NCBI GenBank assembly: GCA_964502345.1
Contig: CAZCWH010000001.1
Span: forward strand, 167-64,166
Length of the DNA stretch: 64,000 bases
DNA from: an uncultured Candidatus Saccharibacteria bacterium
GTDB lineage: Bacteria > Patescibacteriota > Minisyncoccia > Phycocordibacterales > UBA918
Direction: 5' to 3'
Positions 15,901 through 60,840 of this stretch are shown in pieces (the first letter of the stretch is position 1; each line of letters starts with the position of its first letter). A model generated the notes under the pieces. The model saw only the letters and a list, made by a program, of their open reading frames with translations, was not told the DNA's origin and ran no database searches. Made by a program: the position numbers and the translations under genes.

Positions 15901-18900
15901 GTTTGGTGAGAGGAAACTAGAGTTTTCATTTGATACCCCGCCCCCCAGTATAGAAATGTCTGTACTGTCATCACCATCCGTTAAATTAATCGAATCGTAC
16001 ATCTCCCAGGCGCCGCCAGTCGCACCCACATCAGTCCATGATGTTACAGCGCTACAGGTTGTGATTTTTGCTCCATACTCTAATCGTAATGCTCTGGCTA
16101 ATGAAGTAACAGTACCTTCGTTTGAAACTTGTAACCTCAAACGTACGGGAGTTGTCTGTGCAACATTTGAAATTGCCGTATCTTCCGCGTCACCCGAGAG
16201 CGAAGTTGCTGTTGTCTCATCTCCATTATCACTTCTCCAGTGGTAGTGGGTCTGTGTAAGGACTGCTCCTAAAAGTGTCGTTGACCCATTCATATCACGA
16301 GTAATTGAAGGACTTACTGAGCCTCCTCCAGAGACAATTAAATTTGATGATGGGCTTTCCATGATGATATCGATAGTTTCATCATTTTGTGCAGTGTCAG
16401 TCGTATCAAGTACGGTGTACAAACACATGGTCGACGTCGTCGAAATCGAGACTGACCCTGTAAATGTTGAGGTCCCATTGGGTCCTGAAAATCCATCAGT
16501 ATCTGTTGAACCAAACTGGGCTTCCCCTCCCGTATAACTATCACTTGCACAATCATAGGGAGCAGTGGTATCCAAATCATAATGAAGTTCTATATTGTCT
16601 AGATCGGTTTGTGCATCAACAGTCCCATTTTCTGAAATAGTAATGCTGGTAACATTGCGAGTGCTGACATTCTCAGTAATGACAAAAGCGCTCCCCACAT
16701 AGAAATCTGTTGCTGGTATTGTTGTCGTTGCTGTCTGACTTGTGGTTGCAATGGTCACGAGGACATCTGAAGAAATATTTGCACGCGGTATAACTGAATA
16801 CGCTGAGAGCGCTTGTCCTTGATTGGTAACTCTAAAACAGTATGTATTCCCTTCTACCGCGGTTGTTGAAGCTACTATTGAATACTCTAATTCAACAAAC
16901 TCTGATGATGACAGAGTAATTTGGCCGGTTTGAGATACAGTATCTTTTACACCACCATTTGGAGTAAGGAAGGTAGCATTTTCATCTGTCACAGCACCAT
17001 TGATTCCTGATGCTATATTTGTAGTATCTGCACCATCAGTTAAATTTAGTGTGTCGACCATATCAAAATCACCTCCTGCTGAACCAATGTCAGTCCATCC
17101 TGTTGCTGCTTCGCACGTGCTTGGATTTGGCGCATACTCCAAACGATACTGCATTGCTGGAGTTGAACTACTGCCCTCATTTGATACCTCTACACGGAGA
17201 CGTGTGGTTGATCCTTGTCGCATCGCAGTCAGTGAGGTGTCCTCAACTCCGCTCGTCTTTGAAGTGGCAGTCGTTTCATTTCCATCATCATTGCGCCAAT
17301 GATAGTGAACGAGAGTAGGAGTATCGTTATACACCAATGTTGTTCCAGAAAGATCTTGTGAAGCACTTGGCCCGGCACTACTACTCGTAACGGTCACATC
17401 GCTCGCTGGATTTGCAATAGAAATTTCAATTGTTGAACTACTGTCCGCTGAATCAAGCACGTCCATGACGGGATATACACAAAGTGCTTCAGTCGCATCT
17501 ACATTAACAGTCGAACCAGTAAACCCTGATGTACCATCTGCGCCAGAAAAACCATTACCATCCGTTGAACCAAACTGACTTTCACTTCCTCCATACGTGA
17601 CACTTGCACAATCGTATGGCGACACTGTATCGAGCTCATAAAACAACTTTACGTTAGCAATATCTGCCGAACCATCGATTGTTCCAGATTCAGTAATGGT
17701 AATTCCAGTAATATCATATGCTTGCGTTTCATCAGTATTGTAAAGACTAAACACACTACCGACATAGACATTACTCGTGCTTGCGTAGAGTGACGCAATT
17801 TGAGACCCAGTAGTTGCAATTGCAGTGCTTGGTAAATTTGCGAGTGTAGCACCATAGATATCATCGTCTGTATTATCAAACCATGTAACATACAAACGTT
17901 CACTATTGACGAATCCTACATCAACTCCATAGATATCATCTGGACTAGTATTTACTGGACCTTGTTCATATTCCCATGTAGTCATCCCATCAGTTGATCG
18001 TTTCCATAGTACATTCGCTGTGTTGGCTGTGTTTGCTGTGGCCTGTGCGCTATACGCTACATAGACGTCGTCATTGCTTGTATCCAGTGCAATGGCAACA
18101 TTTGTAAGACCAAGTACGACAGATGCACTCACATTAGTTTTTGGAGTCCACGTACCCGCGGAATAGACTGCTGTACGTAGCACGTCGTTCCCTGGTGTAG
18201 CATTATCTGCAATGTACGCGAGATATACATCTCCAGTCGTTGGACTCACAGTAACAGCCATACCTACGTCATATGTCGCATTATCGATTGCGTTTGAATC
18301 AATAGTCGTAGACGCCGCATCCCACGAGCCAGCTCCATTATTCCAAACTTTACTTTCAATATTTTCTGCAGCGGCGCCGACATCGCGATGAATTGCAATA
18401 ATGTTGCCCCCTGGAAGTGGGGCGAGTATTGCATAGTTGTTAGTGAGCCCAAAGGGGTTAGTTCCTGTTTCTGACCAACTTCCCGCAAGATTACAACTCG
18501 CAGAACATTCAACTACAAATGAATCAGATGCATCAATACTGCTTGCATAGATCGTCCCATCAGTTCCCTTCGTTATTGAAATCTGGTTGGTACCTACAGT
18601 AATCGTGCCTCCTTGAGCGTTTGTCGTACTTACCGGTGCACTACCCATAAGCAGTGTGTCGCTCGTCGTATCAAGCCGGTTGTACCAAACATCATCAGGG
18701 TTAGTATCGAGTGTCGCTATATGAATGTAATCTCCTGTATCTCCGGGCGTCCACTGGTCATACCATACTTGAATAGAGATACAGTCGACCTGAGCATCAA
18801 CCGTTGTGGTACCACTCCATGTCTGACCTCCATCAGTTGTTTTGCGGTACACACAGTATCCGGGTGCGTCAACAAAAAATTTGTACCCTGTCTGATCATC

Positions 18901-20331
18901 GGTAAAGACGGTTTGGGAGCCGGCTAACACATGTGATGTACCTGCGGTACTCACATTGCTATCTATTGTGTACTGGGTGTAGGAGTCATTACTATTGATT
19001 TCGTCAAAGGCAGTTGTGCGTACATGGATCCCTGGAAAAATATCAGCGAGAGTTTCTCCAAAAATATCATTATCTGTGTCATCAAACCACGTTGCATAAA
19101 TCCGTTCATCACTGACCAGATTTAAATTGATGCCGTACATATCATCAGCGCTCGTATTGAGTGGCCCCTGCTCATATCCCCAACTTGCCATGTCATCAGT
19201 CGACTTGCGCCAGTAAATATTTCCAGTCGCTAGTGTGAGAGGTGTTGTACGAGCACTATATGCTACGTACACATCGTCATTAGAGGCATCAAGTGCGATA
19301 GCAACATTCGTGATTCCTTTCTCACTATACCTCACAACCTCTTTTGTCGAGGTCCACGTACCACTCGAGTATCGTGCAGTGCGAATCTGATCGTCAGCTC
19401 CAAGGGTCGTATTACGTGCGATATATGCCAAATACACATCTCCTGTCGTCGGACTCACCGTAACAGCCATTCCAACATCATACGTAGTGTTATCTGTTGC
19501 ATTTGCATCTATGGTCGTCGATGCAGCGTCCCATGAGCCTGTGCCATTGTTCCAAACCTTACTCTCAATATTCTCTGCAACCGCAGCAACGTCACGATGA
19601 ATTGCTATGATGTCGCCACCTGGGAGAGGAGCGAGTATTGCATAGTTATTGGTAAGCCCAAATGGATTTGTACCGGTCTCAGACCAACTTCCTGCGACAT
19701 TACAACTTGAAGAACATTCAACAACAAATGAATCGGAGGCATCTATACTGCTTGCATAGATTGTTCCATCTGTTCCCTTCGTAATAGAAATTTGGTTTGC
19801 ACCTGCCGTAATGGTTCCACCCTGCCCCGTAGTCATACTAACTGGTGAGCTCCCCAAGAGGAGTGTATCCCCATTGGTATCAAGACGGTTATACCAAACA
19901 TCATCTGGGTTAGTATCGAGTGTAGCTATATGGATGTAAGTTCCAGTATCCCCTGGTGTCCACTGGTCGTACCAGACTTGCACTGAGATACAGTCAACCT
20001 GTGCATCGACTGTTGTTGTAGCGCTCCAGGTCTGCCCTCCATCCGTTGTTTTACGGTACACACAGTATCCTGGAGCATCAACAAAGAATTTGTATCCTGT
20101 TTGATCATCAATAAATACCGTTTGCGAACCCGACAGTATGTGCGACGTACCAACGGTACTTGCATCAGAATCAATAGTTGCCTGTGCAGCTTCAGCAGTA
20201 GGTACTATCCTCGTTAATAGTGCATCACCAAAACTGCTAAGCAAAAAAACGAGTATAAGAATAGACGCAACAGTCTTCTTCACTCGCAAGAGTTTTTTAA
20301 ATACAATACCTCCCATTGTCACCATTATCAC
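12916..20331 (-). CDS. giant secreted surface protein (2471 aa). It has two tandem BNR/Asp-box sialidase-like beta-propellers, repeated ~190-aa HYHWRxDDG...YCFR modules, and a conserved C-terminal module.
   Basis: signal peptide. Asp-box motifs TTDGGQTW and STDGMTTW occur in two ~390-aa units that are ~85% identical at the DNA level (about 17780-18980 and 19010-20180). The C-terminus ...GTSIRYIAVPIF is shared with the 378-aa protein. Confidence 0.85.
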   Translation of the reverse strand: MIMVTMGGIVFKKLLRVKKTVASILILVFLLSSFGDALLTRIVPTAEAAQATIDSDASTVGTSHILSGSQTVFIDDQTGYKFFVDAPGYCVYRKTTDGGQTWSATTTVDAQVDCISVQVWYDQWTPGDTGTYIHIATLDTNPDDVWYNRLDTNGDTLLLGSSPVSMTTGQGGTITAGANQISITKGTDGTIYASSIDASDSFVVECSSSCNVAGSWSETGTNPFGLTNNYAILAPLPGGDIIAIHRDVAAVAENIESKVWNNGTGSWDAASTTIDANATDNTTYDVGMAVTVSPTTGDVYLAYIARNTTLGADDQIRTARYSSGTWTSTKEVVRYSEKGITNVAIALDASNDDVYVAYSARTTPLTLATGNIYWRKSTDDMASWGYEQGPLNTSADDMYGINLNLVSDERIYATWFDDTDNDIFGETLADIFPGIHVRTTAFDEINSNDSYTQYTIDSNVSTAGTSHVLAGSQTVFTDDQTGYKFFVDAPGYCVYRKTTDGGQTWSGTTTVDAQVDCISIQVWYDQWTPGDTGDYIHIATLDTNPDDVWYNRLDTTSDTLLMGSAPVSTTNAQGGTITVGTNQISITKGTDGTIYASSIDASDSFVVECSASCNLAGSWSETGTNPFGLTNNYAILAPLPGGNIIAIHRDVGAAAENIESKVWNNGAGSWDAASTTIDSNAIDNATYDVGMAVTVSPTTGDVYLAYIADNATPGNDVLRTAVYSAGTWTPKTNVSASVVLGLTNVAIALDTSNDDVYVAYSAQATANTANTANVLWKRSTDGMTTWEYEQGPVNTSPDDIYGVDVGFVNSERLYVTWFDNTDDDIYGATLANLPSTAIATTGSQIASLYASTSNVYVGSVFSLYNTDETQAYDITGITITESGTIDGSADIANVKLFYELDTVSPYDCASVTYGGSESQFGSTDGNGFSGADGTSGFTGSTVNVDATEALCVYPVMDVLDSADSSSTIEISIANPASDVTVTSSSAGPSASQDLSGTTLVYNDTPTLVHYHWRNDDGNETTATSKTSGVEDTSLTAMRQGSTTRLRVEVSNEGSSSTPAMQYRLEYAPNPSTCEAATGWTDIGSAGGDFDMVDTLNLTDGADTTNIASGINGAVTDENATFLTPNGGVKDTVSQTGQITLSSSEFVELEYSIVASTTAVEGNTYCFRVTNQGQALSAYSVIPRANISSDVLVTIATTSQTATTTIPATDFYVGSAFVITENVSTRNVTSITISENGTVDAQTDLDNIELHYDLDTTAPYDCASDSYTGGEAQFGSTDTDGFSGPNGTSTFTGSVSISTTSTMCLYTVLDTTDTAQNDETIDIIMESPSSNLIVSGGGSVSPSITRDMNGSTTLLGAVLTQTHYHWRSDNGDETTATSLSGDAEDTAISNVAQTTPVRLRLQVSNEGTVTSLARALRLEYGAKITTCSAVTSWTDVGATGGAWEMYDSINLTDGDDSTDISILGGGVSNENSSFLSPNSAIKDTSSIIATTSITSSEYLEAEFSIEQTVDAGNDITYCFRLAASSVELNAYSKYAELTTSPERDFEIQRNSATILMGATSTTLVAGVHYITPNASTSAFIRITNIGITGAGHASGNTAAQNATNTTAYILNPSNIMTSVTIARTGVATSTRVDWEIIEFIGEPGSDNEMIVHDQTFIAYGVASTSATGSIVSGITNDDDVVVFITGQQSPDTGSANYDALPSTSAWDANNDTPYFWRGATGTDAVRVSYAVVEFKGPNWVVQRSEHTYSAAGVTETEAITALGNLTRTFIHTQKRNNRLLNGTDEFGAEVWLSSVGSVSYFLQAGATTPSGQTSVAWIIENTQTAAGAMEVTQSNGFTTGGTAPLTVSVTLPNGKVLTDLTNASIFANARSSLTTTIFPRAIAGITIASSTAFEIWRSNTGSVLTYRAEIVEWPTAGLALEQLHYQLFVDNNALKPTDPWPVGGQDLGEDTTLTATDEPLGEGERIRIRMSLQALNATWPAGTKAFKLQYAPMVSTCSAISEANWNTLGNAASSTIWRGFNATGTTDGTLLSGDPPTLGDLVLPSISDVAGTLEEENDTDANAHAVQVNETIEYDWIVEQNGANAETYYCFRMVETNGELLGNYYQHPKIRTASFTPKTQNWRWYDDENNETPVTPLAIENVAPIDIANGQAVKLRVVVKEVKNISRDDVRFKLQYSEYANFETVADVVATSTCTATSTWCYADGGGTDNSEITTGTLSDADSCVAGVGNGCGTHNESPQALSGFRHEGGDATEYEFTIQSAGPRVNLVYYFRLYDVVQGVPVSTNNSEQYPSLVTEGASLVFSVGGVASSTATEGITTDVASGTTTIPFGILPIGSDVEAVQRLRVTTNATEGYRIFMIATDDFMSGSEAIIPPITGTNASPIDWSTGCSTEATGCAGYHSGDDTLYNSNARFSAIDTYARMSTTTLDEVAYSSVPVTNEITDIVFKLKVRQSQPAGVYGTSIRYIAVPIF

Positions 20332-20335
20332 CTAC

Positions 20336-22123: not shown

Positions 22124-22255
22124 AGCTCTACGTTCAGGGGCGTAGAAATTGACCTAATACCCCTGATACCTGTAATGGTACCAGTATATACACTGCTTCT
22201 CCACAGTTTTATCAACAGAGTAAGTTAATCTCTTTACCAAGCACATCTACGGAGC

Positions 22256-22993
22256 TTACTTAATAAATGAGTCAGCTAGAAGTATTGAAAAATCCTTAAG
22301 CGTCATGCGCCCGTCTCCATTAAAATCAAAAATCTTACCTTTTGTGAACCATGCTGCCATAAAGGCAGAGATGTCTTTAAGGTCCACTTCCCCATTACCG
22401 TCGAGATCAGTCACGAAGGCAACCTCAGCAGTTCCAATAAGCTCACCATCTACACCCGTTATGTAGATTCTTGTCTCGTCGTCCTCAACGTCCGCGACAT
22501 CAACAAGTGTTCCTAATCCATCTCCCGCAACAAATGTAGCGTTATCGGTGGTCACCTTAGCAATACCTGATTCGAGTGCTTTTGCATTGATTCGAGCAAT
22601 CGTATGCTCTCCAATAAAACCCTTTCTAAATGTTCCTCCCCGCATATATATGCGCCCATCCTTTGCATAGGGTTTCTCTGTCCACAGTGTAATGACTGAG
22701 GTCCCCGTATCAACACTTTCGATGCTCATCTGTGATTCTGGATACTTTATGGTTATATCAACAGCATTTACCGGTGTATGTGCTGTTGCGCGTACTTCTA
22801 TGTAAAAATTCTCACCTTCGAGTACTGAAGACGGACTTGTGTGAATTGAAATATATGAAGTATTTTCTGTGATTACAGAAGCAAGGCTTGCAAAGAGTGC
22901 CGTGAGTACAACCAGTGGAAATGCATATCGAACAGTCTTACCAGTTGTAAGCGTATATGATGGAAACATCATTTTCCAAATCTTTTCAAACAT
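22256..22993 (-). CDS. small secreted protein with an N-terminal cohesin-like domain and a C-terminal dockerin-like module
   Basis: cohesin-like segment VLEGENFYIEVRATAHTPVNAVDITIKYPESQMSIESVDTGTSVITLW. The C-terminus DLDGNGEVDLKDISAFMAAW...DFNGDGRMTLKDFSILLADSF is two Ca-binding dockerin-like repeats. Confidence 0.6.
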   Translation of the reverse strand: MFEKIWKMMFPSYTLTTGKTVRYAFPLVVLTALFASLASVITENTSYISIHTSPSSVLEGENFYIEVRATAHTPVNAVDITIKYPESQMSIESVDTGTSVITLWTEKPYAKDGRIYMRGGTFRKGFIGEHTIARINAKALESGIAKVTTDNATFVAGDGLGTLVDVADVEDDETRIYITGVDGELIGTAEVAFVTDLDGNGEVDLKDISAFMAAWFTKGKIFDFNGDGRMTLKDFSILLADSFIK

Positions 22994-22995
22994 AG

Positions 22996-23655
22996 TTACG
23001 TGCCAAGTTCAGCTCGTAAGTTATCAATCTGCTTATCAATAACGTTCAGTGTTTCTGATATGTTTTGTGCAGTACTTGCAAGCCCTTGCACGTTTTTACT
23101 TGATGTTTGCTCACCTTTTATAAGTGCGGTGATAATATCACCTTGTATAGTGGTAAGTTCTGTAAGATATGCACTTCGGTCTTTCTCAAGATCGATAATC
23201 TTCCCCCAGGTATCGAGATTATTGAACGAAACAGTTTTTGGGCTAATAACTTTAAGTAACGCAATACTTTCCTCTAATGATGCATACTCACGTTCGAGAC
23301 GCGACACCATGAGTGCCTTTCTTTCTGCATAGAAACTCCCGCAGCTTTCAAATAATTGTTGAACGATTATGAGATCCTTGTTTGTAAGTGACTCTAGGCG
23401 ACCCAAAAGGAGGTCAAATTCATTTCGTCTTGGACAGTCTTGAATAATTGCCCCAACGACACCATCTGCGCCATTCCAGTCTGTTGTATCAGCAAGTCCA
23501 ACCATGAGCTCGACTTGTGCATCAATGTTTTCTTGAATTTTTTGCACCACTTCTTCTTTTTGGTAATGTGCGACCCACGCACCGGCAGTAATTGCTCCTG
23601 CAATGATACAGAGGTGGATACTTATGAGTAAGTGCGAATTCAGAAAGGATTTCAT
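22996..23655 (-). CDS. hypothetical membrane-anchored coiled-coil protein
   Basis: 219 aa with an N-terminal TM. The remainder is predicted helical/coiled. Confidence 0.5.
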   Translation of the reverse strand: MKSFLNSHLLISIHLCIIAGAITAGAWVAHYQKEEVVQKIQENIDAQVELMVGLADTTDWNGADGVVGAIIQDCPRRNEFDLLLGRLESLTNKDLIIVQQLFESCGSFYAERKALMVSRLEREYASLEESIALLKVISPKTVSFNNLDTWGKIIDLEKDRSAYLTELTTIQGDIITALIKGEQTSSKNVQGLASTAQNISETLNVIDKQIDNLRAELGT

Positions 23656-23659
23656 GCTT

Positions 23660-25405
23660 CTATTGTACTATATGTTCGATATCTGATATTTCCTTTCGTA
23701 TCTTTGACCGTGCGTCAGCGAGATCTGTTTCAATTTGATCTATAAGAGTATTTTCTGCCTGTGTGAGCTTGCCTTTTCGTGACTCTTTCAGCTTTTCAAC
23801 ATTTTTGTGCATGTTGGTCATTACTTCGTCGAGCTCTATCTTCATTATACTCTCTACCTCAAGGGTTTCTTTCTCAACTTTTCGACGCCACACCGCAAGC
23901 CTGTGCCAGAGATACCAGCAACCAAAAATCAGTACAATAGAGAGTGAGATAAGCGGAACAAGTACAGAAAGCACCGTCACAACAAACGAACCAATTCGTA
24001 CGAATCCTGGTTCCTCAACTATAATTCTAATCGGATCTGAGACATCACTTGTTGCGCCGTGCATGTCTGTTGCAATTGCCGTTATGTCATACACACCAAT
24101 TTCAAATGGTGCGTCAGGGATGAATATGAATGCACCTCCCCCGTCGGATTTAAGTGTGTACGTTTTTGTAGCACCATCTGTTGGTGTCACTGACACCTCT
24201 ACCTGTGCGTCAGGACGTGTAGTACCCCTCAGTGCTGGGATTACTTCAGCGTTAATTCGTGATGGATACTCAGTAAAAAGTGGTTTCTCAAATGCTGTAA
24301 TATCAAATGAATATGTAGCAACTCGACTGTTACCTGCACCATCAAATGCTTCTACGATAAGTGTATGGTGTCCTGGCGCTATTGAAGGAAGCACGTACTT
24401 TCTCGTTTCTTCCTCATCTAGATATTCAAAAGGGTCAGTAGCATCAATCTGTATTTTGTATCGTGTTACAGGAGAAATATCTTCCACAGTAAACTGAAGT
24501 GTTCGCTTTGGATTTGATGGATCAAAATCAGTATCTTCTGAAACAGTAAATGCTGACGGCGCCTCACTATCTACCTGGATTTTAAAGTGGGTTACCCTAC
24601 CCCATCCCTCTGCATTTTTAAACTGAATATGGAAATACGATATGCCTTGTGGCAAATCCTCGAGTGTACGTGATCGAATGGGCTCGTCATATACGATGGT
24701 TGGTATTGTACTTGGAGCAGTGTCGAGTAATGTACGTACTGCAATAATTCCACTCGGTAGTTCCCAACTAAGCTCTGCAGCGTCATTCTTGTACCAGGTC
24801 TCCTGATTACCATGAGTCGTTGAAGTGACAACTGGAGCCTTTGGGGTATTGGCTGGTGCAATATACTCAGGCTCTGGATTACTCGTTACTGCAGAAATTG
24901 TATAGGAAGAACCAGTCATTGATGTCAGAACATTTGTTCCAAGTCCATCAGCTGCAAGCACTGAACCACTCTTAAAGGTGACTTTTGGATTACCTGCACC
25001 AAGAGGTCTAAACGTAATTGTTAAAATGTTCCCCGAGGCTCCGGTGTAACCCGTTGGTGATCCTCCTCCAAACGATATTGTGCCTAATGTATTTGAAAAA
25101 CTTGGCTCCTGTGTCCACAAATTAAAAATGGAACTCGCTCGAGAGACACTGACGACAGAAAGCTCCTTTGGGTTATAAGAAAGCTGACCATCTGCAGCAT
25201 TGACTGCTTTGTTTTGAGTATTAATGATCACATTTGCGGTAAATGTCCCTCCAACGGTATACACTCCCGTATCTGGACTCACACGAAGTGTTGCAGCATG
25301 TGCCGACTGTGTCATACAGATATACAACACACTCAAGAGACCAACGATGATGATCGTTCGTAAAAATACTATTCCTATACTATTCGATTTCAACATTGTC
25401 TTCAT
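23660..25405 (-). CDS. cohesin-domain bitopic membrane protein with a cytoplasmic coiled-coil tail
   Basis: signal peptide, then a cohesin-like domain (ATLRVSPDTGVYTVGGTFTANVIINTQNKAVNAADGQLSYNPKELSVVSVS...NLW). Ig-like domains follow, then a TM (IGSFVVTVLSVLVPLISLSIVLIFGCWYLW) and a ~90-aa charged helical tail. Confidence 0.7.
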   Translation of the reverse strand: MKTMLKSNSIGIVFLRTIIIVGLLSVLYICMTQSAHAATLRVSPDTGVYTVGGTFTANVIINTQNKAVNAADGQLSYNPKELSVVSVSRASSIFNLWTQEPSFSNTLGTISFGGGSPTGYTGASGNILTITFRPLGAGNPKVTFKSGSVLAADGLGTNVLTSMTGSSYTISAVTSNPEPEYIAPANTPKAPVVTSTTHGNQETWYKNDAAELSWELPSGIIAVRTLLDTAPSTIPTIVYDEPIRSRTLEDLPQGISYFHIQFKNAEGWGRVTHFKIQVDSEAPSAFTVSEDTDFDPSNPKRTLQFTVEDISPVTRYKIQIDATDPFEYLDEEETRKYVLPSIAPGHHTLIVEAFDGAGNSRVATYSFDITAFEKPLFTEYPSRINAEVIPALRGTTRPDAQVEVSVTPTDGATKTYTLKSDGGGAFIFIPDAPFEIGVYDITAIATDMHGATSDVSDPIRIIVEEPGFVRIGSFVVTVLSVLVPLISLSIVLIFGCWYLWHRLAVWRRKVEKETLEVESIMKIELDEVMTNMHKNVEKLKESRKGKLTQAENTLIDQIETDLADARSKIRKEISDIEHIVQ

Positions 25406-26471
25406 AGAGTGCTAACAGTTTTTGCTTGCGTCGCCAGAGCATGTATACAATAAGCCCACACACAACGATTACGAGCGTCCCCACAACAACCCACGTAATA
25501 ATTGTGCCCAAGGTTAATGTACGCATTGCCTCTGCAGGAACGAGGACCGCAACAGTTTCATTTCCTGCCTTATCAATTGCTTTGACACGTATTGTGCTAT
25601 TAAGTGTTTGATCAGTTAGGACATATGGGCTTTCAGTTGTCACCCATGGCGCATCAGCTCTCCCCCACCTAAATGCATAGAAATCTTCAAAGGGTTCTTC
25701 CATTACTTCATAGTGGTCGATTCCTGATTGTTTATCATGACTATTAAAGGATATGAAGTAGCGTCCACTAAACGCGAAATCATCTTTGAAAAGACTTATT
25801 AAAAAATCTGATGGCTTAGTGGTGTCCGTCTGGACACGATTTTTCCAGTCGTCTTCAGTTGTTTCACCTGCAGTGCCAAGTAGTGTGATTATGGCTCCCT
25901 GTGTACGTAGTGAAGCTGGAGTGCCGAAACCATCATGAATAAGCACTTGCGATGTCTCGTCAACCCAAATATTAGCTGTGGGTGCATCTCCAGCTCCGAT
26001 ACTAAAACCAGGTGACCGGAAGACAAGTTCTGCAATTATATTCGTGAGACTCGGATCACCAGCAATTCTTCCACAGTATCCACCAGGCAAGCCTCCTGCG
26101 AGTGTAATCGTGTGATTTTCTTCATCAATCTTAGGGTCCTCGAGCCAAATATTGAGAATTGAATCACCGCGCGATACATCAACGGCTCTGATGGCTGAAT
26201 CATACTTAATTACAGCATCGACTGCATTGATACATTCCCCTTCATCTGTATCAATTCTTAAACCGACCGTCACAGTATCACCTCGATTTAAATTTATTTC
26301 TCCTGGATCAAAATATAGAAGTGCAGCTTGTGTATGCACACATAACACCAAAAACAGTAGTGAAGAAAATAAAAAATAGGCGAAACCTCGCACGACATGC
26401 TGAATGGCGCTGTGCATATGTACGTATAGTATAACAGTCACTATAGTCTGACATAGCCCCACTACCCACAT
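25380..26471 (-). CDS. cohesin-domain membrane protein (N-terminal signal/anchor, cohesin-like domain, C-terminal TM)
   Basis: LLYFDPGEINLNRGDTVTVGLRIDTDEGECINAVDAVIKYDSAIRAVDVSRGDSILNIW is cohesin-like. The C-terminal TM is TIITWVVVGTLVIVVCGLIVYMLW. Confidence 0.65.
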   Translation of the reverse strand: MWVVGLCQTIVTVILYVHMHSAIQHVVRGFAYFLFSSLLFLVLCVHTQAALLYFDPGEINLNRGDTVTVGLRIDTDEGECINAVDAVIKYDSAIRAVDVSRGDSILNIWLEDPKIDEENHTITLAGGLPGGYCGRIAGDPSLTNIIAELVFRSPGFSIGAGDAPTANIWVDETSQVLIHDGFGTPASLRTQGAIITLLGTAGETTEDDWKNRVQTDTTKPSDFLISLFKDDFAFSGRYFISFNSHDKQSGIDHYEVMEEPFEDFYAFRWGRADAPWVTTESPYVLTDQTLNSTIRVKAIDKAGNETVAVLVPAEAMRTLTLGTIITWVVVGTLVIVVCGLIVYMLWRRKQKLLALYEDNVEIE

Positions 26472-26826: not shown

Positions 26827-27963
26827 TTAGAACGTCGGTGTCGCAATGTAGCGAAGCTCCGTCGTATAGTCGTCGCCTGCTTCTTGGAGCGCCGAGATCT
26901 GAATCTGGTACCCGATGCGTGCGGCGCCTATTCCGGCAGTCACACCATCTGCTGGTCCCGTATGACCCATAACCACTATAGGTGTCGTGCTACCTGATAC
27001 CCATTCATCTGAACCAAACTCTTCTGGTGCAGAACGTGAAGTTGTAGCGTCAGTTGAGGTTAGACCCCAATGACCGTAGGTAGCGATGTCAGCAACAAGA
27101 GCACTTGGCCCTTGCCACGCAGTTGGTGTTTGCGTGTAGGCTCCATCGATGAATCCATCGATTATTCCGCCTGTTGTTGATTCGAGATCACCTGTTTGTT
27201 CTACTGTTACCGTGTAGCCGTGTAGGGCGTTTGTGGTAACAGAAAGATCTTGAGCAAGTGTTTTTGACGTATTGATTTCGAGTGTACCGAACGGTAGCGC
27301 TACATTAGTTGAAGTTGCTGCAGTCGTTGTTGGGCTCCCGTTCACGGTTGAGCTGGCTCCGACGCCAGTGACTGTGAATGTGAGCGAAGCATTGACGCTT
27401 GCAGATACCGTTACTTCATCAATGATAGCGACCCGAACTTGCCCTGAATCGGGCATGGTTCCACCGATTTCAATAAGATGCGATGTCGTTGTTGCAGTCG
27501 GGTTTGAGATCTGAGCATCCCCTCCTCCAAATAGACCAATCTCAATTACGAGTGGTGTACTTGATGCCTGCGGTACGTTACTCGGTGATGTGAGTGTTAG
27601 TACCTGAGCATTGAAGTAGGCTCCCCACACTCCACTTCCATTTACTGCCGCTACTGTTTGTGGAGTAGCTGATGCAGTGATGTCGATATCATCGAATGCC
27701 ATTGCTGGTATCGTGAAATCTACAGGAAATGTAATGGTGATCGTTGAACTTGCGAGCATACCAGTTGGCGTTGTAAACGCAATGGTGTGGTCGGAAGGCA
27801 ACCCTGGTGCAGAACTAGACAACGTATCACTTGCAAAAGTGATTGATGCAGCTTCCGCGGTGCGGAAGATGGTTGGAAGACCTGTACTCCAAAGGAATAC
27901 AGCGATACCAACAATCATTGCAACAGCCTGAAGAGTTCGCACGGTACTTGCCGTGTGAATCAT
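26827..27963 (-). CDS. secreted protein sharing the ~170-aa type-A C-terminal module with the 2471-aa giant protein
   Basis: 378 aa with a signal peptide. Its C-terminal half aligns by eye with the 2471-aa C-terminus (L.F.V.GV.ASST...PFG.L.I...VTTNA..GY... ...RYIA.P.F). Confidence 0.6.
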   Translation of the reverse strand: MIHTASTVRTLQAVAMIVGIAVFLWSTGLPTIFRTAEAASITFASDTLSSSAPGLPSDHTIAFTTPTGMLASSTITITFPVDFTIPAMAFDDIDITASATPQTVAAVNGSGVWGAYFNAQVLTLTSPSNVPQASSTPLVIEIGLFGGGDAQISNPTATTTSHLIEIGGTMPDSGQVRVAIIDEVTVSASVNASLTFTVTGVGASSTVNGSPTTTAATSTNVALPFGTLEINTSKTLAQDLSVTTNALHGYTVTVEQTGDLESTTGGIIDGFIDGAYTQTPTAWQGPSALVADIATYGHWGLTSTDATTSRSAPEEFGSDEWVSGSTTPIVVMGHTGPADGVTAGIGAARIGYQIQISALQEAGDDYTTELRYIATPTF

Positions 27964-28537: not shown

Positions 28538-29662
28538 TCACCCGGTCCAGTTGAAGAGAAGGATTGAGAAGTCTTCGAGACTGACTCGACCATTTTGATT
28601 AATGTCTGCTGGAGGATTCGAGTTTCCACCTGGCGTATTCCACCAAAAAATCAGGATTGAAAAGTCGATTAGATTTACCTTCCCGTCACGATTGAGATCC
28701 GAGTTACTCGTCGGCCTCCCCTCAACTCCTACAAATAGTGACAGTGCCGTACCATAGGTACTTTCTGTTTTGAGGTTGCCTGTTCCTTCAATGAATCGTG
28801 CCTTTGCGGTGTGTGTATCTGCGGTGACGCTCGATGTATTGAAATCAACACTCCAATTTCCATTCGCGTCTGATGTTGTCCTCAGAGTTTGCTTTCCATT
28901 ATCAATTGATACTTCAACTGCAACACTTGGAACTGTTTGCCCACGCAAAATTATTGTCTCACCGGGATTAGGAGCATTATTGGAAGCACGTATAGTTGGT
29001 GGAATTAGCACACCGTTTACGTTTGTCACTGCACCCTGCGTTATATCAAACGTAGTACTGAATGTTGCAGATCGTGTCCCCGCAGTATCATTTGCCCAAA
29101 AGCTAAGTGATGCTGTACCAGGTTCAGTATCTGTATTAAATAAAAATTCTCCCCTACTATTTGTACGCACAGTCCCCACTGACTCACCATCAATTAAAAT
29201 AGTAACGGTGACATTCGGATACGCTTTCCCCTGCACAGTCACTTGCGTATCGCCAAGTTCGGTATCTCGTCCTCCTGACCCTGAATTTCCACCACCACCG
29301 GTCGATCCTCCTCCTGCATCTGCTTCTTCTTCTGTACAGTCTGCTGCACAAAAATCACCATCGGTATTGTTACCATCATCACACTCCTCTGAATAAATCG
29401 TTTGTAAAATAGCATCACCACAATATGGTGCCCACCTACAAATATCAGTGCACTGTCTTCCTGCGATTGTTGTGCTGTATTCCCCAGTATCTGTTGGGAT
29501 ATCACAGCTTTCTCCTGCATTGACAATAAGGTCACCACAAATACTAATGAGTAGCGAAGTCGTCGCAATACTTGATTGAGACGAAGCAACAAGAGGAACA
29601 AACATGGTGAGCAAACCACATATGCTTAGAATGAAATGATACGCAGGTCGTTTAGCGTACAT
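28538..29662 (-). CDS. secreted dockerin-bearing protein. Myxococcus-type Cys-rich repeats, a Gly-rich linker, two Ig-like domains, and a C-terminal dockerin.
   Basis: CGDxxxxxGEECDDGNNTDGDFCAADC-type repeats. The C-terminus DLNRDGKVNLIDFSILIFWW...DINQNGRVSLEDFSILLFNWTG is a dockerin duplicated-segment motif. Confidence 0.7.
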   Translation of the reverse strand: MYAKRPAYHFILSICGLLTMFVPLVASSQSSIATTSLLISICGDLIVNAGESCDIPTDTGEYSTTIAGRQCTDICRWAPYCGDAILQTIYSEECDDGNNTDGDFCAADCTEEEADAGGGSTGGGGNSGSGGRDTELGDTQVTVQGKAYPNVTVTILIDGESVGTVRTNSRGEFLFNTDTEPGTASLSFWANDTAGTRSATFSTTFDITQGAVTNVNGVLIPPTIRASNNAPNPGETIILRGQTVPSVAVEVSIDNGKQTLRTTSDANGNWSVDFNTSSVTADTHTAKARFIEGTGNLKTESTYGTALSLFVGVEGRPTSNSDLNRDGKVNLIDFSILIFWWNTPGGNSNPPADINQNGRVSLEDFSILLFNWTG

Positions 29663-29665
29663 ATG

Positions 29666-32673: not shown

Positions 32674-33888
32674 TTATTCATACCGAATGGCATCAAGCGG
32701 GTTGAGAAGTGACGCTCTACGCGCTGGAAAAATTCCAGTTAAATAGCCTACTGCAGCCGAGAAAATCGCAATGAATGTAAGGAAGGTTAGCGGGAAAGAA
32801 AACAAGTTTACTGATTGACCACCGAACTGACTTGCCGCGATGTTCAACAGGATATTCACCACAATCCCCAGCGTTACCCCCATAGCTATCCCCGTCACAC
32901 CTCCCATGAACCCTACGACAATTGACTCGGAAATGAAGAGGAATTTAATGTCACGAGGCGAAGCGCCGAGCGTTCGCATAATCCCAATTTCTTTTGTACG
33001 TTCAAGAAGTGTGACTGTCATTGTGTTGAACATACCGATCGCTGAAACAAGGAGTGCAATACCTCCGAACGTTGCCAAGACTGCCTGCACTCCTTCAAAA
33101 ATCTTTGATGCTTGCTCAACTGTCTTTGAAAGTGCAGTAACCCGATACCCTGCCTTTATGAGTGATTCTTCGGTTACGGTGAGGAATTCATTTGATACCA
33201 CTTTCACTTGAGCACGGTCGTACTCTTCTACCCCCACGTAGTTTTTAAGTTCTTGAAGCATCATGAGTGCATTGAGTACACCTTCTTCCTTTGTAACCCC
33301 TCGAACCTTAAACTGCTTCTCGATTACAATCTCATTGATTGTATCTGTTCCATCGTCTGCAGGAATCAAGAGGCGAAATGAAACCTCCTGTCCTATAAAA
33401 GAATCGATTTTATCATCAGCAATACCGAAAAGCTTTAGAACAGCAGGTGAAATCATCACATCAGTTCCGTTTCCAATATCAGCTTCCTGAAAAACTTCTC
33501 CGTATGTCGCAGTTATACCTGAATATCGTATATATGCAGGTTCTGCTCCTTGAAGGAAGACATTACCAGTTAGACCTTTATAGGTAATGAGCGCAGGATA
33601 CCGTGCGAGCGGAGCAGCATCTTGAATATTTGGGTCCTTTTCAAATTCAGCGATAACCTCGTCAGTGATTGAAAGATTTCGTGCCCCCGTTGCCGAGACG
33701 CCAAGTGAGAGAAGACTGTCACCGAAGACAATCTGTTCAAGAATGATCTGCTGAAGACCAAACCCGAGTCCAACAAGCACAACGACTGCCCCGGTTCCCA
33801 CTCCCATACCAAGAATAGTAAGCCACGTACGAAGTGGATTCGTCTTAAACATTCTCGTTGAGAGTCGAGCGAGATCAGCAACTTGCAT
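32674..33888 (-). CDS. ABC transporter permease, FtsX/MacB-like, with a large extracytoplasmic domain
   Basis: 404 aa with TM1, an ~220-aa periplasmic-type domain, then a 3-TM FtsX domain with TLGAS...G motif context. Confidence 0.85.
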   Translation of the reverse strand: MQVADLARLSTRMFKTNPLRTWLTILGMGVGTGAVVVLVGLGFGLQQIILEQIVFGDSLLSLGVSATGARNLSITDEVIAEFEKDPNIQDAAPLARYPALITYKGLTGNVFLQGAEPAYIRYSGITATYGEVFQEADIGNGTDVMISPAVLKLFGIADDKIDSFIGQEVSFRLLIPADDGTDTINEIVIEKQFKVRGVTKEEGVLNALMMLQELKNYVGVEEYDRAQVKVVSNEFLTVTEESLIKAGYRVTALSKTVEQASKIFEGVQAVLATFGGIALLVSAIGMFNTMTVTLLERTKEIGIMRTLGASPRDIKFLFISESIVVGFMGGVTGIAMGVTLGIVVNILLNIAASQFGGQSVNLFSFPLTFLTFIAIFSAAVGYLTGIFPARRASLLNPLDAIRYE

Positions 33889-33982
33889 ACTGTAGTGTAA
33901 TAGTAAACAAAAAACACCGAATACGAAACCTGGTTGCTCGCATAACTAGCACTCAAAGCTAAAAGCGCACTTTGAGCGTGCA

Positions 33983-60379: not shown

Positions 60380-60840
60380 CACTGCTCCTTTGTACGTGCT
60401 CGACTTATCTTTAAACGAACCTTCTCCTTTTCTTCAGGTCGCAGAAGAGGAAGGATAAGGACCAGTACTCCATTCTTAATCTTTGCCTCTGCACCCTCAA
60501 TATCAACACTTTCTGGTAAGATGATTCGTCTATAAAAATCGCCCCAGACGCATTCTTCAGTAAAGAAAGCACCTTCAGGCTTTTTCTTTGGGAATGCCAA
60601 ATGTTCTGGGCGCAACCGCTTACCCTCAATAAGCACAACATCGGCATCACCCTCAATAGACACATGAATATCGGTGAGCTCAGCCCCGGCAGCTTGTGCA
60701 TATACGGTAATAAGATCAGTCGTCTGAAATACATCGACATCGAGTTGCACAATCTTATCAAGTGCCGTTTCTTCTTCGCTCGATTGCAGACGTTGTTCAG
60801 TTCGAATACCTCTTCCCTTGAGTCTTTGCAAAAAGGACAT
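60379..60840 (-). CDS. Hsp20/alpha-crystallin family small heat-shock protein
   Basis: 153 aa with an alpha-crystallin domain (LDVDVFQTTDLITVYAQAAGAE...IEGKRL...GDFYRRIILPESVDIEGAEAKIKNGVLVLILP). Its stop TGA overlaps the ATG of the downstream cohesin gene as TGATG. Confidence 0.85.
   Translation of the reverse strand: MSFLQRLKGRGIRTEQRLQSSEEETALDKIVQLDVDVFQTTDLITVYAQAAGAELTDIHVSIEGDADVVLIEGKRLRPEHLAFPKKKPEGAFFTEECVWGDFYRRIILPESVDIEGAEAKIKNGVLVLILPLLRPEEKEKVRLKISRARTKEQ

What the first reader, a model, noticed from the sequence alone, without database searches (positions are those of the whole stretch)
22256..26471. Cluster of cohesin-like proteins: three bitopic membrane proteins displaying a cohesin outside with a long cytoplasmic coiled-coil tail, plus a small cohesin-dockerin fusion
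23660..25405, 25380..26471 and 58850..60379 share the architecture signal peptide, cohesin-like beta-sandwich (...L.YDP.VLSVVSVS......LW...), Ig-like domains, TM, and an 80-100-aa charged helical tail. A cytoplasmic coiled-coil behind a cohesin is unusual because classic cohesins are on secreted scaffoldins or S-layer-anchored. It suggests the docking platform is coupled to a cytoplasmic partner such as cytoskeletal or signalling proteins. 22256..22993 carries both a cohesin-like N-domain and a dockerin-like C-terminus, so it could act as an adaptor or self-assemble.
Basis: partly seen in the sequence, partly recalled or inferred. Interest (0 to 1): 0.8.

Follow-up and report, generated by a model that had tools for sequence, protein, structure and literature searches.

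The report
Membrane-anchored cohesin–dockerin docking set in Parcubacteria
Four neighbouring genes of an ultrasmall (CPR/Parcubacteria) bacterium encode genuine cohesin modules anchored in the cell membrane, two of them with a conserved, previously undescribed cytoplasmic tail; they sit next to dockerin-tagged proteins, a pilin and giant adhesins, so they probably form the docking base of the cell's attachment apparatus.

Summary

C581 and E510 are type-I membrane proteins: signal peptide, cohesin, 3 or 2 Ig domains, TM helix, then an ~80-aa cytoplasmic tail predicted as helix-turn-helix. The tail is as conserved as the ectodomain and matches no known family.

These are large Parcubacteria families (1,719 clusters at 50% identity with E<=1e-30) in fixed gene neighbourhoods. 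One neighbourhood runs dockerin protein - (Pam-type pilin) - D363 - C581 - B219 - A245 - ... - 2,471-aa giant. The other runs dockerin protein - HSP20 - E510 - 7,248-aa giant.

Most likely this is a membrane-anchored, non-cellulosomal cohesin-dockerin system that holds dockerin-tagged surface proteins on the cell. Binding and any cytoplasmic partner remain untested. I rate it a new variant of a known kind, with moderate to high interest.

The parts
23660..25405 (-). C581: signal peptide (aa 1-37), cohesin (aa 38-172), Pro-rich hinge, three Ig/FnIII-like domains (aa 193-464), TM helix (aa ~470-500), conserved cytoplasmic helix-turn-helix tail (aa 501-581)
24890..25294 (-). Cohesin module of C581 (aa 38-172)
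23663..23905 (-). Cytoplasmic tail domain of C581 (aa 501-581): R/K-rich stop-transfer, helix 1, turn with near-invariant L547-T548-x-x-E551, helix 2
   Evidence: AF2 helices 467-542 and 549-580. Conservation 0.67 in close and 0.44 in distant relatives, equal to the Ig domains. No PDB or Pfam match. The tail HMM hits only the C-termini of this architecture.
25380..26471 (-). D363: signal peptide, cohesin-like domain, one Ig-like domain, TM helix (aa ~320-347), 15-aa tail; the true start is probably Met19 (345 aa)
   Evidence: Pfam Cohesin 17.9 bits, sub-threshold. BLASTP to the C581 cohesin E 2e-12. Large conserved family of ~340 aa. Lies upstream of C581 in 71 of 73 loci. Overlaps the C581 start by 26 nt.
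22996..23655 (-). B219: N-terminal TM helix plus ~190-aa helical domain with two conserved Cys; probably N-in/C-out
   Evidence: No Pfam family. Found downstream of C581 in 50 of 70 loci. Conserved Cys pair and charge bias. 4-nt and 2-nt gaps to its neighbours.
22256..22993 (-). A245: conserved N-terminal signal-anchor-like segment (aa 20-43), cohesin (aa 44-180), dockerin (aa 195-245)
   Evidence: Foldseek top 35 hits are all cohesins, best 2vo8 with TM 0.83. Two Ca-loop motifs at aa 196 and 223. 46 of 49 orthologues hit Dockerin_1 and 19 of 49 hit Cohesin. N-terminal segment conservation 0.71, with net charge +4 before the TM and -0.1 after.
58850..60382 (-). E510: paralogue of C581 with signal peptide, cohesin, two Ig-like domains, TM helix and the same 79-aa tail domain
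   Evidence: Pfam Cohesin 30.4 bits. 36% identical to C581 over 381 aa, with tail E 2e-5. Tail HMM 58.7 bits. 57 orthologous metagenome loci.
60379..60840 (-). HSP20/alpha-crystallin gene, cytoplasmic, translationally coupled to E510 (TGATG junction, AAGGAG upstream)
   Evidence: Pfam HSP20 40.1 bits. Immediately upstream of E510 orthologues in 44 of 44 loci. Junction sequence.
28538..29662 (-). 374-aa dockerin-bearing surface protein (Cys-rich repeat, two Ig-like domains, C-terminal dockerin); proposed ligand of the C581/D363 cohesins
   Evidence: Dockerin_1 34.1 bits, above the cut-off. Found upstream of C581 in 41 of 44 loci. Lies directly upstream of the D363-like gene in 9 of 11 distant loci.
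61171..63042 (-). 623-aa protein: pilin-NTD-like module, Gly-rich linker, two Ig-like domains, C-terminal dockerin (80% identical to the 374-aa dockerin); proposed ligand of the E510 cohesin
   Evidence: Dockerin_1 36.6 bits. NTD similar to the 378-aa pilin NTD. Found upstream of E510 orthologues in 43 of 44 loci. Dockerin identity.
26827..27963 (-). 378-aa Pam-type pilin homologue (context)
   Evidence: NCBIfam CPR_Pam_pilin_C: 9 of 12 orthologues match, best E 2.3e-10; the window protein scores 19.5 bits.
12916..20331 (-). 2,471-aa giant surface protein ending in the same pilin C-terminal domain (context)
   Evidence: BLASTP of aa 2298-2471 against the 378-aa CTD gives 31.6% identity, E 3e-6. 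Present downstream in 38 of 48 loci.
37020..58766 (-). 7,248-aa giant surface protein immediately downstream of E510 (context)
   Evidence: DUF2341 and Ig_Rha78A_N domains. A homologue lies directly downstream of E510 orthologues in 28 of 30 loci.
10552..12935 (-). Two paralogous proteins (450 and 344 aa) with signal peptide, beta-domains and TM; WxLIP/PapD-like chaperone candidates (context)
   Evidence: Paralogy. WxLIP_PGBD sub-threshold hits in 4 of 7 family members, best 26.6 bits against a cut-off of 27.3. TM segments.
32674..35305 (-). MacB/FtsX-type permease and ABC ATPase with a ~200-aa C-terminal extension (context; conserved upstream block)
   Evidence: Pfam domains. Synteny in 30 of 39 and 25 of 35 loci at ~74% identity. 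The extension has no PDB match.

Best explanation
The finding is the membrane-anchored docking module of a conserved Parcubacteria (class Paceibacteria; Kaiserbacteria-like genome) cell-surface locus. It is a non-cellulosomal cohesin-dockerin system.

Shown:
- C581 and E510 are Sec-exported type-I membrane proteins. Each places one true cohesin at the tip of a stalk of Ig-like domains (3 or 2), crosses the membrane once, and ends in a conserved ~80-aa cytoplasmic tail predicted as helix-turn-helix.
- D363 is a shorter cohesin-Ig-TM protein without that tail.
- A245 carries a cohesin and a canonical dockerin behind a conserved N-terminal hydrophobic segment.
- Each tail-bearing cohesin gene lies in a fixed neighbourhood with a dockerin-tagged, Ig-rich secreted protein and a giant surface protein. 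The C581 neighbourhood also holds a Pam-type pilin, WxLIP-like membrane proteins and a MacB-type ABC transporter.

Inferred:
- The cohesins bind the neighbouring dockerins in a Ca-dependent way. The domain classes suggest the pairing: the C581 and E510 cohesins (51% identical) with the 374-aa and 623-aa dockerins (80% identical), and the D363 and/or A245 cohesin with the distinct A245 dockerin.
- This tethers dockerin-tagged surface proteins to the cytoplasmic membrane of a cell with no SLH or sortase anchoring. Through the pilin-like N-domain of the 623-aa protein, it may also tether parts of the pilus and giant-adhesin apparatus.
- The conserved tail most likely fixes the oligomeric state or position of the anchor, or binds a cytoplasmic factor that is still unidentified.

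For: Dockerins: three proteins carry paired Ca-loop motifs. Dockerin_1 scores exceed the cut-off for the 374-aa and 623-aa proteins. 46 of 49 A245 orthologues match Dockerin_1.

Topology: an N-terminal signal peptide, a single TM helix, and an R/K-rich segment after the TM.

Family size and full-length conservation: 1,719 representative clusters at E<=1e-30, with the top 150 almost all ~570-600 aa and aligned to the end of the tail.

Tail: it is as conserved as the ectodomain and occurs only with this architecture.

Synteny around C581: D363 in 71/73 loci, A245 in 57/69, B219 in 50/70, the 374-aa dockerin protein in 41/44, the giant in 38/48, and the pilin in 44/56, all on the same strand. The order dockerin gene, D363-like gene, C581-like gene holds in 9 of 11 distant lineages.

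Synteny around E510: HSP20 in 44/44 loci, the dockerin protein in 43/44, and the giant in 28/30.

Matching domain classes. Overlapping or 2-4-nt-spaced genes indicate one operon.
Against: No binding was tested or modelled, because no multimer prediction was available. The pairing rests on gene neighbourhood and domain classes only.

D363 is below the Pfam cohesin cut-off, and the A245 dockerin is below the Dockerin_1 cut-off in the window protein.

The giant proteins carry no dockerin, so their link to the cohesins is indirect at best.

Two of 11 distant loci show no nearby dockerin.

The A245 dockerin region is modelled at only pLDDT 55-70.

Nothing identifies a partner or a role for the tail.

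The cohesin fold is a beta-sandwich that could have been recruited for another ligand.
Confidence: 0.6

Rival explanations
1. The cohesin-like proteins are assembly or anchoring factors of a Pam-like donor-strand-exchange pilus. In this view they are functional equivalents of the membrane-anchored PamC/PamD chaperones or the PamR terminator/anchor, and they act on pilin domains and not on dockerins.
For: The locus contains a Pam-type pilin and a giant protein ending in the same pilin C-terminal domain. In the published Pam system the accessory proteins PamC, PamD and PamR are beta-sandwich proteins with a C-terminal TM helix (bioRxiv 10.64898/2026.03.03.709456). That is the same general layout as D363, C581 and E510.
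Confidence: 0.15
2. The cohesin-like modules are direct adhesins or receptors for a host-cell or environmental ligand such as a glycan or a host surface protein. The TM helix and conserved tail would report or regulate that contact. The neighbouring dockerins would be unrelated or would bind elsewhere.
For: CPR bacteria are thought to live attached to hosts, and the locus is rich in giant adhesin-like proteins. The cohesin sits at the membrane-distal tip of an Ig stalk. The tail is strongly conserved.
Against: The cohesin domain is the most conserved part of the protein: 0.79 column identity among close relatives, with 55-67% overall identity across many genera. That is unusual for host-specific receptors, which normally diversify. 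It fits better with an internal protein partner that co-evolves slowly. The linkage of dockerin genes to these cohesin genes is conserved.
Confidence: 0.12
3. The cytoplasmic tail has no separate partner. It is a self-association module, for example a helical hairpin that pairs into a four-helix bundle. It sets the oligomeric state or clustering of the anchor and retains it in the membrane. This contradicts the reader's idea of coupling to cytoskeletal or signalling proteins.
For: The tail shows a narrow hydrophobic stripe with a 3-4-4 spacing and periodicity ~3.6 on both helices, typical of helix-helix packing. The invariant L-T-x-x-E is a helix N-capping box (established knowledge of capping motifs), so the conserved residues are structural. 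The tail resembles no interaction domain or known family. No cytoskeletal or kinase gene lies in the conserved neighbourhoods.
Against: Conservation equal to that of the folded ectodomains over >1,700 clusters is more than simple oligomerisation usually demands. An HSP20 gene is translationally coupled to E510 in 44 of 44 loci. A conserved ABC ATPase with an unexplained 200-aa extension lies in the C581 locus. Either could be a partner.
Confidence: 0.4

Closest known systems
Single-cohesin anchoring scaffoldins of cellulosomes (e.g. C. thermocellum OlpA/OlpC/SdbA, R. flavefaciens ScaE)
   Different: Those proteins are anchored by SLH domains or sortase and have no cytoplasmic part (established knowledge; summarised in PMC9012536). 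Here the anchor is a TM helix followed by a conserved cytoplasmic domain. The dockerin partners carry no glycoside hydrolases. The organism is a CPR bacterium.
Non-cellulosomal cohesin-dockerin pairs: Archaeoglobus fulgidus AF2375/AF2376 and the Clostridium perfringens glycoside-hydrolase toxin complexes
   Same: These are the best structural matches: 2vo8, 2jh2 and 2w1n (C. perfringens) and 2xdh (A. fulgidus). A cohesin and a dockerin in one polypeptide, as in A245, is known for AF2375 (own knowledge: Bayer et al. 1999; Voronov-Goldman et al. 2011). The cohesin plus FnIII arrangement resembles 2w1n.
   Different: Those are secreted enzymes or soluble proteins. None has the TM anchor, the cytoplasmic tail, or the linkage to pilins and giant adhesins.
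Pam pilus system of CPR bacteria (Troman et al., bioRxiv 10.64898/2026.03.03.709456)
   Same: The same superphylum. The neighbouring 378-aa protein and the 2,471-aa giant carry the Pam pilin C-terminal domain. Accessory proteins are beta-sandwich proteins with a C-terminal TM helix.
   Different: The paper mentions no cohesin, dockerin or MacB transporter and reports Pam mainly in Saccharimonadia and Microgenomatia. The proteins here have a cohesin fold, not a PapD or RbmA fold.
Dockerin/cohesin proteins of ANME archaea and dockerin-rich giant proteins of Omnitrophota
   Same: These are non-cellulosomal cohesin and dockerin modules in uncultured, partner-dependent microbes. They are proposed to mediate cell-cell or surface assembly (PMC9012536; PMC10066038).
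   Different: Those reports describe scaffoldin-like multi-cohesin proteins or dockerins inside giant ORFs. They do not describe a single cohesin on a TM anchor with a conserved cytoplasmic domain in a fixed operon.

Membership tests
Cohesin module (Pfam PF00963) | Significant match to the Cohesin HMM at or above the gathering cut-off (24.1 bits) | tested here: met
   C581 33.2 bits and E510 30.4 bits pass. A245 scores 24.0 (borderline; 19 of 49 orthologues match at E<=0.01). D363 scores 17.9, below the cut-off, but it is BLAST-homologous to the C581 cohesin at E 2e-12.
Cohesin module (Pfam PF00963) | Nine-stranded beta-sandwich (jelly-roll) fold superimposable on solved cohesins | tested here: met
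Cohesin module (Pfam PF00963) | Specific, Ca-dependent binding of a dockerin | not testable with these tools
   Only indirect evidence: conserved gene linkage to dockerin proteins and matching domain classes.
Type I dockerin (Pfam PF00404) | HMM match above the gathering cut-off (22.9 bits) | tested here: met
   The 374-aa protein scores 34.1 and the 623-aa protein 36.6 bits. A245 itself scores 17.9, below the cut-off, but 46 of 49 orthologues match, best E 1.9e-7.
Type I dockerin (Pfam PF00404) | Duplicated ~22-residue segment, each an EF-hand-like Ca loop (D-x-[DN]-x-[DN]-G-...-D) followed by a helix | tested here: met
   Paired loops at A245 aa 196/223, 374-aa protein aa 322/353, and 623-aa protein aa 571/602. 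No other window protein has them. Two C-terminal helices are modelled in A245 at pLDDT 55-70.
Cellulosome (scaffoldin-based multienzyme complex) | Scaffoldin with multiple cohesins, and dockerins carried by carbohydrate-active enzymes | tested here: not met
   There is one cohesin per protein. The dockerin proteins carry Ig-like, Cys-rich-repeat or pilin-like modules and no glycoside hydrolase domain.
Cellulosome (scaffoldin-based multienzyme complex) | Cell anchoring through SLH domains or sortase (LPXTG) | tested here: not met
   No SLH or sortase-signal hit was found. Anchoring is by a TM helix.
Pam pilus system (CPR) | Pilin with the Pam C-terminal truncated-Ig domain (NCBIfam NF058581) | tested here: inconclusive
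   This applies to the neighbouring 378-aa protein, not to the cohesin proteins. 9 of 12 orthologues match, best E 2.3e-10. The window protein scores 19.5 bits, far below the curated 55-bit cut-off. The result indicates distant homology, not curated membership.
Pam pilus system (CPR) | C581, D363 or E510 being PamC/PamD (PapD-like) or PamR (RbmA-like) equivalents | tested here: not met
   The fold search returns cohesins and generic Ig/FnIII hits. No PapD-like chaperone or RbmA is in the top 60. No Pam NCBIfam model matches these proteins.
Bitopic type-I membrane protein with a cytoplasmic domain | Cleavable N-terminal signal peptide, a single TM helix, positive-inside flank, C-terminal domain in the cytoplasm | tested here: met
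   Hydropathy and charge analysis. AF2 helix 467-542 spans the TM. The signal peptide is poorly conserved (0.25), as expected for a cleaved peptide. This is prediction only; no experimental topology exists.

The most novel reading that the evidence does not exclude
The cohesin-TM-tail proteins could be transmembrane couplers in the manner of integrins. In this reading, occupancy of, or tension on, the extracellular cohesin (through a dockerin-tagged adhesin or pilus component attached to a host) is transmitted through the single TM helix to the conserved cytoplasmic hairpin. The hairpin then recruits or releases a cytoplasmic factor. Candidates are the HSP20 that is translationally coupled to E510, or the extended C-terminus of the cluster's MacB-type ABC ATPase. 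This would link host attachment to intracellular responses, or to ATP-driven remodelling of the surface apparatus, in an ultrasmall bacterium.
Probability: 0.12. Interest if true: 0.85.

Novelty: new variant of a known kind. Interest (0 to 1): 0.6.

Why it matters
Parcubacteria/Paceibacteria are among the most abundant uncultured bacteria, and how they build their surface and attach to partners is essentially unknown.

This locus gives a concrete, widely conserved parts list: membrane-anchored cohesins, cognate-looking dockerin proteins, a Pam-type pilin, giant adhesins, WxLIP-like membrane proteins and a MacB-type transporter. It also gives a simple, testable assembly rule, namely which cohesin binds which dockerin.

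It extends the cohesin-dockerin principle to direct TM anchoring combined with a conserved, previously undescribed cytoplasmic domain. It also suggests that Pam-type pilins reach beyond the classes in which they were reported.

If the tail has a cytoplasmic partner, this would be a rare example of a bacterial adhesion platform wired across the membrane.

Tried and rejected
- A profile of full-length C581 against PDB sequences found only the SiiE-type Ig domain and no cohesin. The cohesin call therefore rests on Pfam and on fold searches.
- The tail profile against PDB and Pfam gave only apolipoprotein-like helical noise. I rejected it as homology.
- I considered an apolipoprotein-like, membrane-surface amphipathic helix for the tail. 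I judged it less likely because only ~30% of positions are hydrophobic, which gives a narrow stripe.
- B219 as the cytoplasmic partner of the tail: rejected, because its helical domain has a conserved Cys pair and an N-in charge bias, so it is probably outside the cell.
- The promoter and terminator scan of 20000-30000 was uninformative, with fewer promoter-like sites than in shuffles.
- A strict dockerin regular expression under-detected dockerins in distant loci (3 of 11). tblastn corrected this to 9 of 11.
- No E510-type genes were among the genome-contig loci. They were found by the metagenome scan instead.
- The afdb50 library was unavailable. Peer et al. 2009 was not held. The window's own protein P0001 is not on record for contig look-up, and the cluster look-up gave no names.
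- Literature searches found no paper describing this architecture in CPR bacteria.
- I considered a mirror-tree co-evolution test of cohesin-dockerin pairs and did not run it, because short dockerins and shared phylogeny would make it non-decisive.

Full report
**1. What is at the coordinates**

All genes in this part of the window lie on the minus strand. The finding covers four tightly packed ORFs plus one distant paralogue:
- D363 (25380-26471)
- C581 (23660-25405)
- A245 (22256-22993)
- E510 (58850-60382)

D363 and C581 overlap by 26 nt. The C581-to-B219 and B219-to-A245 gaps are 4 and 2 nt, so these four genes form one operon-like unit.

The window comes from a CPR bacterium of the Parcubacteria/Paceibacteria. 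The closest relatives of C581 are named Kaiserbacteria, Paceibacterota or Minisyncoccia. The surrounding housekeeping genes (uvrB, tgt and others) are ordinary.

**2. Is the N-terminal domain a cohesin? Yes.**

The four proteins share one homologous N-terminal domain.

Pfam Cohesin scores, against a gathering cut-off of 24.1 bits:

| Protein | Score (bits) | Result |
|---|---|---|
| C581 | 33.2 | passes |
| E510 | 30.4 | passes |
| A245 | 24.0 | borderline |
| D363 | 17.9 | below cut-off |

The A245 model has pLDDT 85-93 over its sandwich. Its top 35 Foldseek hits are all cohesins, best 2vo8 with TM 0.83 and rmsd 2.3 Å.

That criterion is clearly not met.

**3. Dockerins**

A245 ends in two canonical Ca-loop and helix repeats: DLDGNGEVDLKD-ISAFMAAWF and DFNGDGRMTLKD-FSILLADSF. 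The same paired motif occurs in exactly two other window proteins, the 374-aa protein (28538-29662) and the 623-aa protein (61171-63042). It does not occur in either giant protein.

Dockerin_1 scores exceed the cut-off for the 374-aa and 623-aa proteins (34.1 and 36.6 bits). The score is sub-threshold for A245 itself (17.9 bits), but 46 of 49 A245 orthologues match, best E 1.9e-7.

None of the dockerin proteins carries a glycoside hydrolase. They hold Ig-like domains, a Cys-rich repeat or a pilin-like N-domain. This is not a cellulosome.

**4. Architecture and topology**

C581 has the following layout:
- a poorly conserved signal peptide, which is therefore probably cleaved
- the cohesin
- a Pro-rich hinge
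- three Ig/FnIII-like domains (aa 193-278, 284-369, 376-464), the last of Big_13 type
- a TM helix that continues as a cytoplasmic helix to aa 542
- a short turn
- a second helix at aa 549-580

The segment after the TM is R/K-rich (HRLAVWRRK), which places the tail in the cytoplasm.

E510 aligns with C581 through the second Ig domain and again over the tail. It therefore has two Ig domains.

D363 has a cohesin-like domain, about one Ig-like domain and a TM helix, but only 15 residues after it.

A245 has an unusually long and conserved N-terminal region. Its hydrophobic segment shows 0.71 column identity, higher than its own cohesin, and the net charge is +4 before the segment and about 0 after it. 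This looks like an uncleaved N-in signal anchor. A245 is probably membrane-tethered and not a free adaptor (inference).

**5. The tail is a conserved domain**

Among relatives at 55-67% identity, the tail is as conserved as the ectodomain (0.67). Among relatives at only 30-35% identity, it keeps its length and pattern (0.44, equal to the Ig domains). The consensus is:

KE..EAE..LH..F..L......I..LEK...KR.LT.EE..I...L...L...EK...KEI.DIE

L547 and E551 are invariant, and T548 is nearly so. L-T-x-x-E at the start of helix 2 is a classical helix N-capping box (established knowledge). The invariant residues therefore look structural: they fix a helix-turn-helix geometry.

Hydrophobic positions follow a 3-4-4 spacing with periodicity about 3.6 on both helices. 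That suits helix-helix packing, such as a hairpin that may pair into a bundle. It does not prove a canonical coiled coil.

A profile of the tail finds nothing meaningful in the PDB or Pfam. A tail HMM hits only the extreme C-terminus of C581- and E510-type ORFs. It found one per locus in 77 of the 79 related loci and two in the window.

**6. How widespread**

C581 retrieves 8,114 representative clusters (50% identity) at E<=1e-3 and 1,719 at E<=1e-30. The top 150 are almost all 565-605 aa and align from the signal peptide to the last residues of the tail.

D363 and A245 are similarly large, length-conserved families.

In one-genome-per-species contigs, the family occurs in Kaiserbacteria, Nomurabacteria, Paceibacteria, Wolfebacteria, Uhrbacteria, Gribaldobacteria and unnamed Patescibacteria. 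A few records are labelled Gammaproteobacteria or Deferribacteres; these are most likely mis-binned contigs.

NCBI already names some members "cohesin domain-containing protein". I found no paper describing the architecture, the tail or the locus.

**7. Context: two conserved neighbourhoods**

Around C581, in 79 genome loci, the following genes were found on the expected side and the same strand:

| Gene | Loci found / loci with room |
|---|---|
| D363 | 71/73 |
| B219 | 50/70 |
| A245 | 57/69 |
| 595-aa acidic protein | 52/64 |
| 2,471-aa giant | 38/48 |
| 378-aa protein | 44/56 |
| 374-aa dockerin protein | 41/44 |
| 312-aa TM protein | 36/43 |
| 627-aa protein | 34/41 |
| MacB/FtsX permease | 30/39 |
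| ABC ATPase | 25/35 |

The same order appears in a complete Kaiserbacteria genome. In the most distant lineages (<45% identity), the order 374-type dockerin gene, then D363-like gene, then C581-like gene is kept in 9 of 11 loci.

Around E510, in 57 orthologous metagenome loci:
- an HSP20 gene is immediately upstream in 44/44
- the 623-aa dockerin protein is upstream in 43/44
- a 7,248-aa-like giant gene is directly downstream in 28/30

The HSP20 stop and the E510 start share TGATG, with AAGGAG just upstream. This indicates translational coupling.

**8. What else the locus is**

The 378-aa neighbour is a distant homologue of the recently described Pam pilins of CPR bacteria. NCBIfam CPR_Pam_pilin_C matches 9 of 12 orthologues, best E 2.3e-10, although all are far from the curated cut-off. 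The paper is bioRxiv 10.64898/2026.03.03.709456.

Further shared modules:
- The 2,471-aa giant ends in the same C-terminal domain as the 378-aa protein.
- The 623-aa dockerin protein begins with a module similar to the pilin N-domain.
- The 627-aa protein shares its C-terminus with the 7,248-aa giant.

Two paralogous proteins with signal peptide, beta-domains and TM (344 and 450 aa) give repeated near-threshold WxLIP_PGBD hits. They are better candidates than the cohesin proteins for the membrane-anchored PapD-like chaperones of the Pam model.

The Pam paper mentions neither cohesin, dockerin nor MacB. It reports Pam mostly in Saccharimonadia and Microgenomatia.

**9. Mechanism**

Shown:
- the cohesin fold
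- canonical dockerins
- bitopic topology (predicted)
- a conserved tail
- fixed gene linkage of cohesin genes with dockerin genes, giants and a pilin

Inferred: the cohesins capture the neighbouring dockerins and so tether dockerin-tagged surface proteins to the membrane. The domain classes fit the two neighbourhoods. The C581 and E510 cohesins are 51% identical, against 30-42% for all other pairs. The 374-aa and 623-aa dockerins are 80% identical. The A245 dockerin is distinct, at 40-47%. This suggests 374 with C581, 623 with E510, and the A245 dockerin with D363 or with A245's own cohesin.

With three Ig domains and a hinge, the cohesin would sit roughly 15-20 nm from the membrane (inference from domain sizes).

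The role of the tail is open. Self-association is the most economical reading. A cytoplasmic partner (HSP20, or the ~200-aa unexplained C-terminal extension of the ABC ATPase) cannot be excluded. B219 is probably extracytoplasmic, given its conserved Cys pair and N-in charge bias, so it is not that partner.

**10. Rivals**

(a) Pam-type chaperone or anchor role. This is weakened by the cohesin fold, by the lack of PapD or RbmA similarity, by the presence of other chaperone candidates, and by dockerin linkage in loci without the pilin.

(b) Direct host-ligand receptor. This is weakened by the unusually high conservation of the cohesin.

(c) A tail with no partner. This remains plausible.

**11. 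Comparison and novelty**

Functionally, these proteins resemble the single-cohesin anchoring scaffoldins OlpA, OlpC and ScaE. Structurally, they are closest to the non-cellulosomal cohesins of C. perfringens and A. fulgidus. The cohesin-plus-dockerin fusion has a precedent in A. fulgidus AF2375 (own knowledge).

They fail the tests for cellulosome membership: there is no multi-cohesin scaffoldin, no enzyme-borne dockerins, and no SLH or sortase anchor.

What is new:
- direct TM anchoring combined with a conserved, family-specific cytoplasmic domain
- the very large and uniform distribution in Parcubacteria
- the integration with a Pam-type pilin, giant adhesins and a MacB transporter in one conserved locus

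I rate this a new variant of a known kind, with interest 0.6.

**12. Limits**

- No multimer modelling or binding test was possible.
- Only two structure predictions were available. D363, E510, the pilin and the chaperone candidates were not modelled.
- afdb50 was unavailable.

Noticed in passing
window 60379-60840 (-): A cytoplasmic HSP20/alpha-crystallin gene is translationally coupled to E510 (TGATG junction, AAGGAG Shine-Dalgarno sequence). It lies immediately upstream of E510 orthologues in 44 of 44 metagenome loci. It is a candidate partner for the cytoplasmic tail, or a chaperone for the giant protein encoded downstream.
   Followed up: partly
window 26827-27963 (-) and 12916-13500 (-): The 378-aa protein is a distant Pam-type pilin: NCBIfam CPR_Pam_pilin_C matches 9 of 12 orthologues, best E 2.3e-10. 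The 2,471-aa giant ends in the same domain and the same ...Y[IV]A[TV]P[TIV]F C-terminus. This suggests Pam-like pili, with a giant subunit, in Paceibacteria, outside the classes reported in the Pam preprint.
   Followed up: partly
window 61171-63042 (-): The 623-aa protein is a chimera. Its N-terminal module is similar to the pilin N-domain (aa 34-200 against aa 38-186 of the 378-aa pilin). A Gly-rich linker, two Ig-like domains and a dockerin follow. It could bridge pilus-type and cohesin-dockerin assembly.
   Followed up: partly
window 10552-12935 (-): Two adjacent paralogues (450 and 344 aa) have a signal peptide, beta-domains, TM helices and near-threshold WxLIP_PGBD (DUF916) matches. They may correspond to the membrane-anchored PapD-like chaperones PamC and PamD. 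The 312-aa protein (29666-30604) has the same layout of signal peptide, beta-domain and C-terminal TM helix.
   Followed up: partly
window 33983-35305 (-): The MacB-partner ABC ATPase is 440 aa. About 200 residues follow the nucleotide-binding domain and match no Pfam family or PDB sequence. The gene is ~74% identical across loci.
   Followed up: partly
window 37020-58766 (-): The 7,248-aa giant gene contains a 300-nt direct repeat at 93% identity (45748-46047 and 50917-51216). It lies within two long near-identical protein segments that carry DUF2341. The giant's C-terminal ~200 aa resemble the C-terminus of the separate 627-aa protein (30718-32601).
   Followed up: partly
window 22996-23655 (-): B219 is a conserved 219-aa protein with an N-terminal TM helix, a helical domain and two conserved cysteines. 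It sits between C581 and A245 with 4-nt and 2-nt gaps. It matches no family and its role is unknown.
   Followed up: partly
window 23660-25405 and 25380-26471 (-): The public gene calls for these two proteins (551 aa and 345 aa, P0001 and P0121) differ from the longest ORFs. The 551-aa call for C581 starts after the signal peptide and is probably too short. The 345-aa call for D363 is probably right.
   Followed up: partly
proteins P0245, P0273, P0322: The first Ig-like domain of C581 (aa ~186-285) recurs 7-16 times in tandem in very large proteins (1,700-5,817 aa) elsewhere in the protein representative library (clusters at 50% identity). This stalk module is therefore also a building block of giant proteins.
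   Followed up: no
loci L034, L066, L077, L079: Contigs carrying clear homologues of this Parcubacteria protein are filed under Gammaproteobacteria, Deferribacteres or Azotimanducaceae MAGs. Many others carry a blanket 'uncultured Candidatus Saccharibacteria' title. Mis-binning or placeholder taxonomy is likely.
   Followed up: no
window 20336-22123 (-): A 595-aa secreted protein has a long acidic, Ser/Thr/Glu-rich N-terminal half and weak beta-propeller-repeat matches (TIGR04275). It is conserved between A245 and the giant gene in 52 of 64 loci.
   Followed up: no
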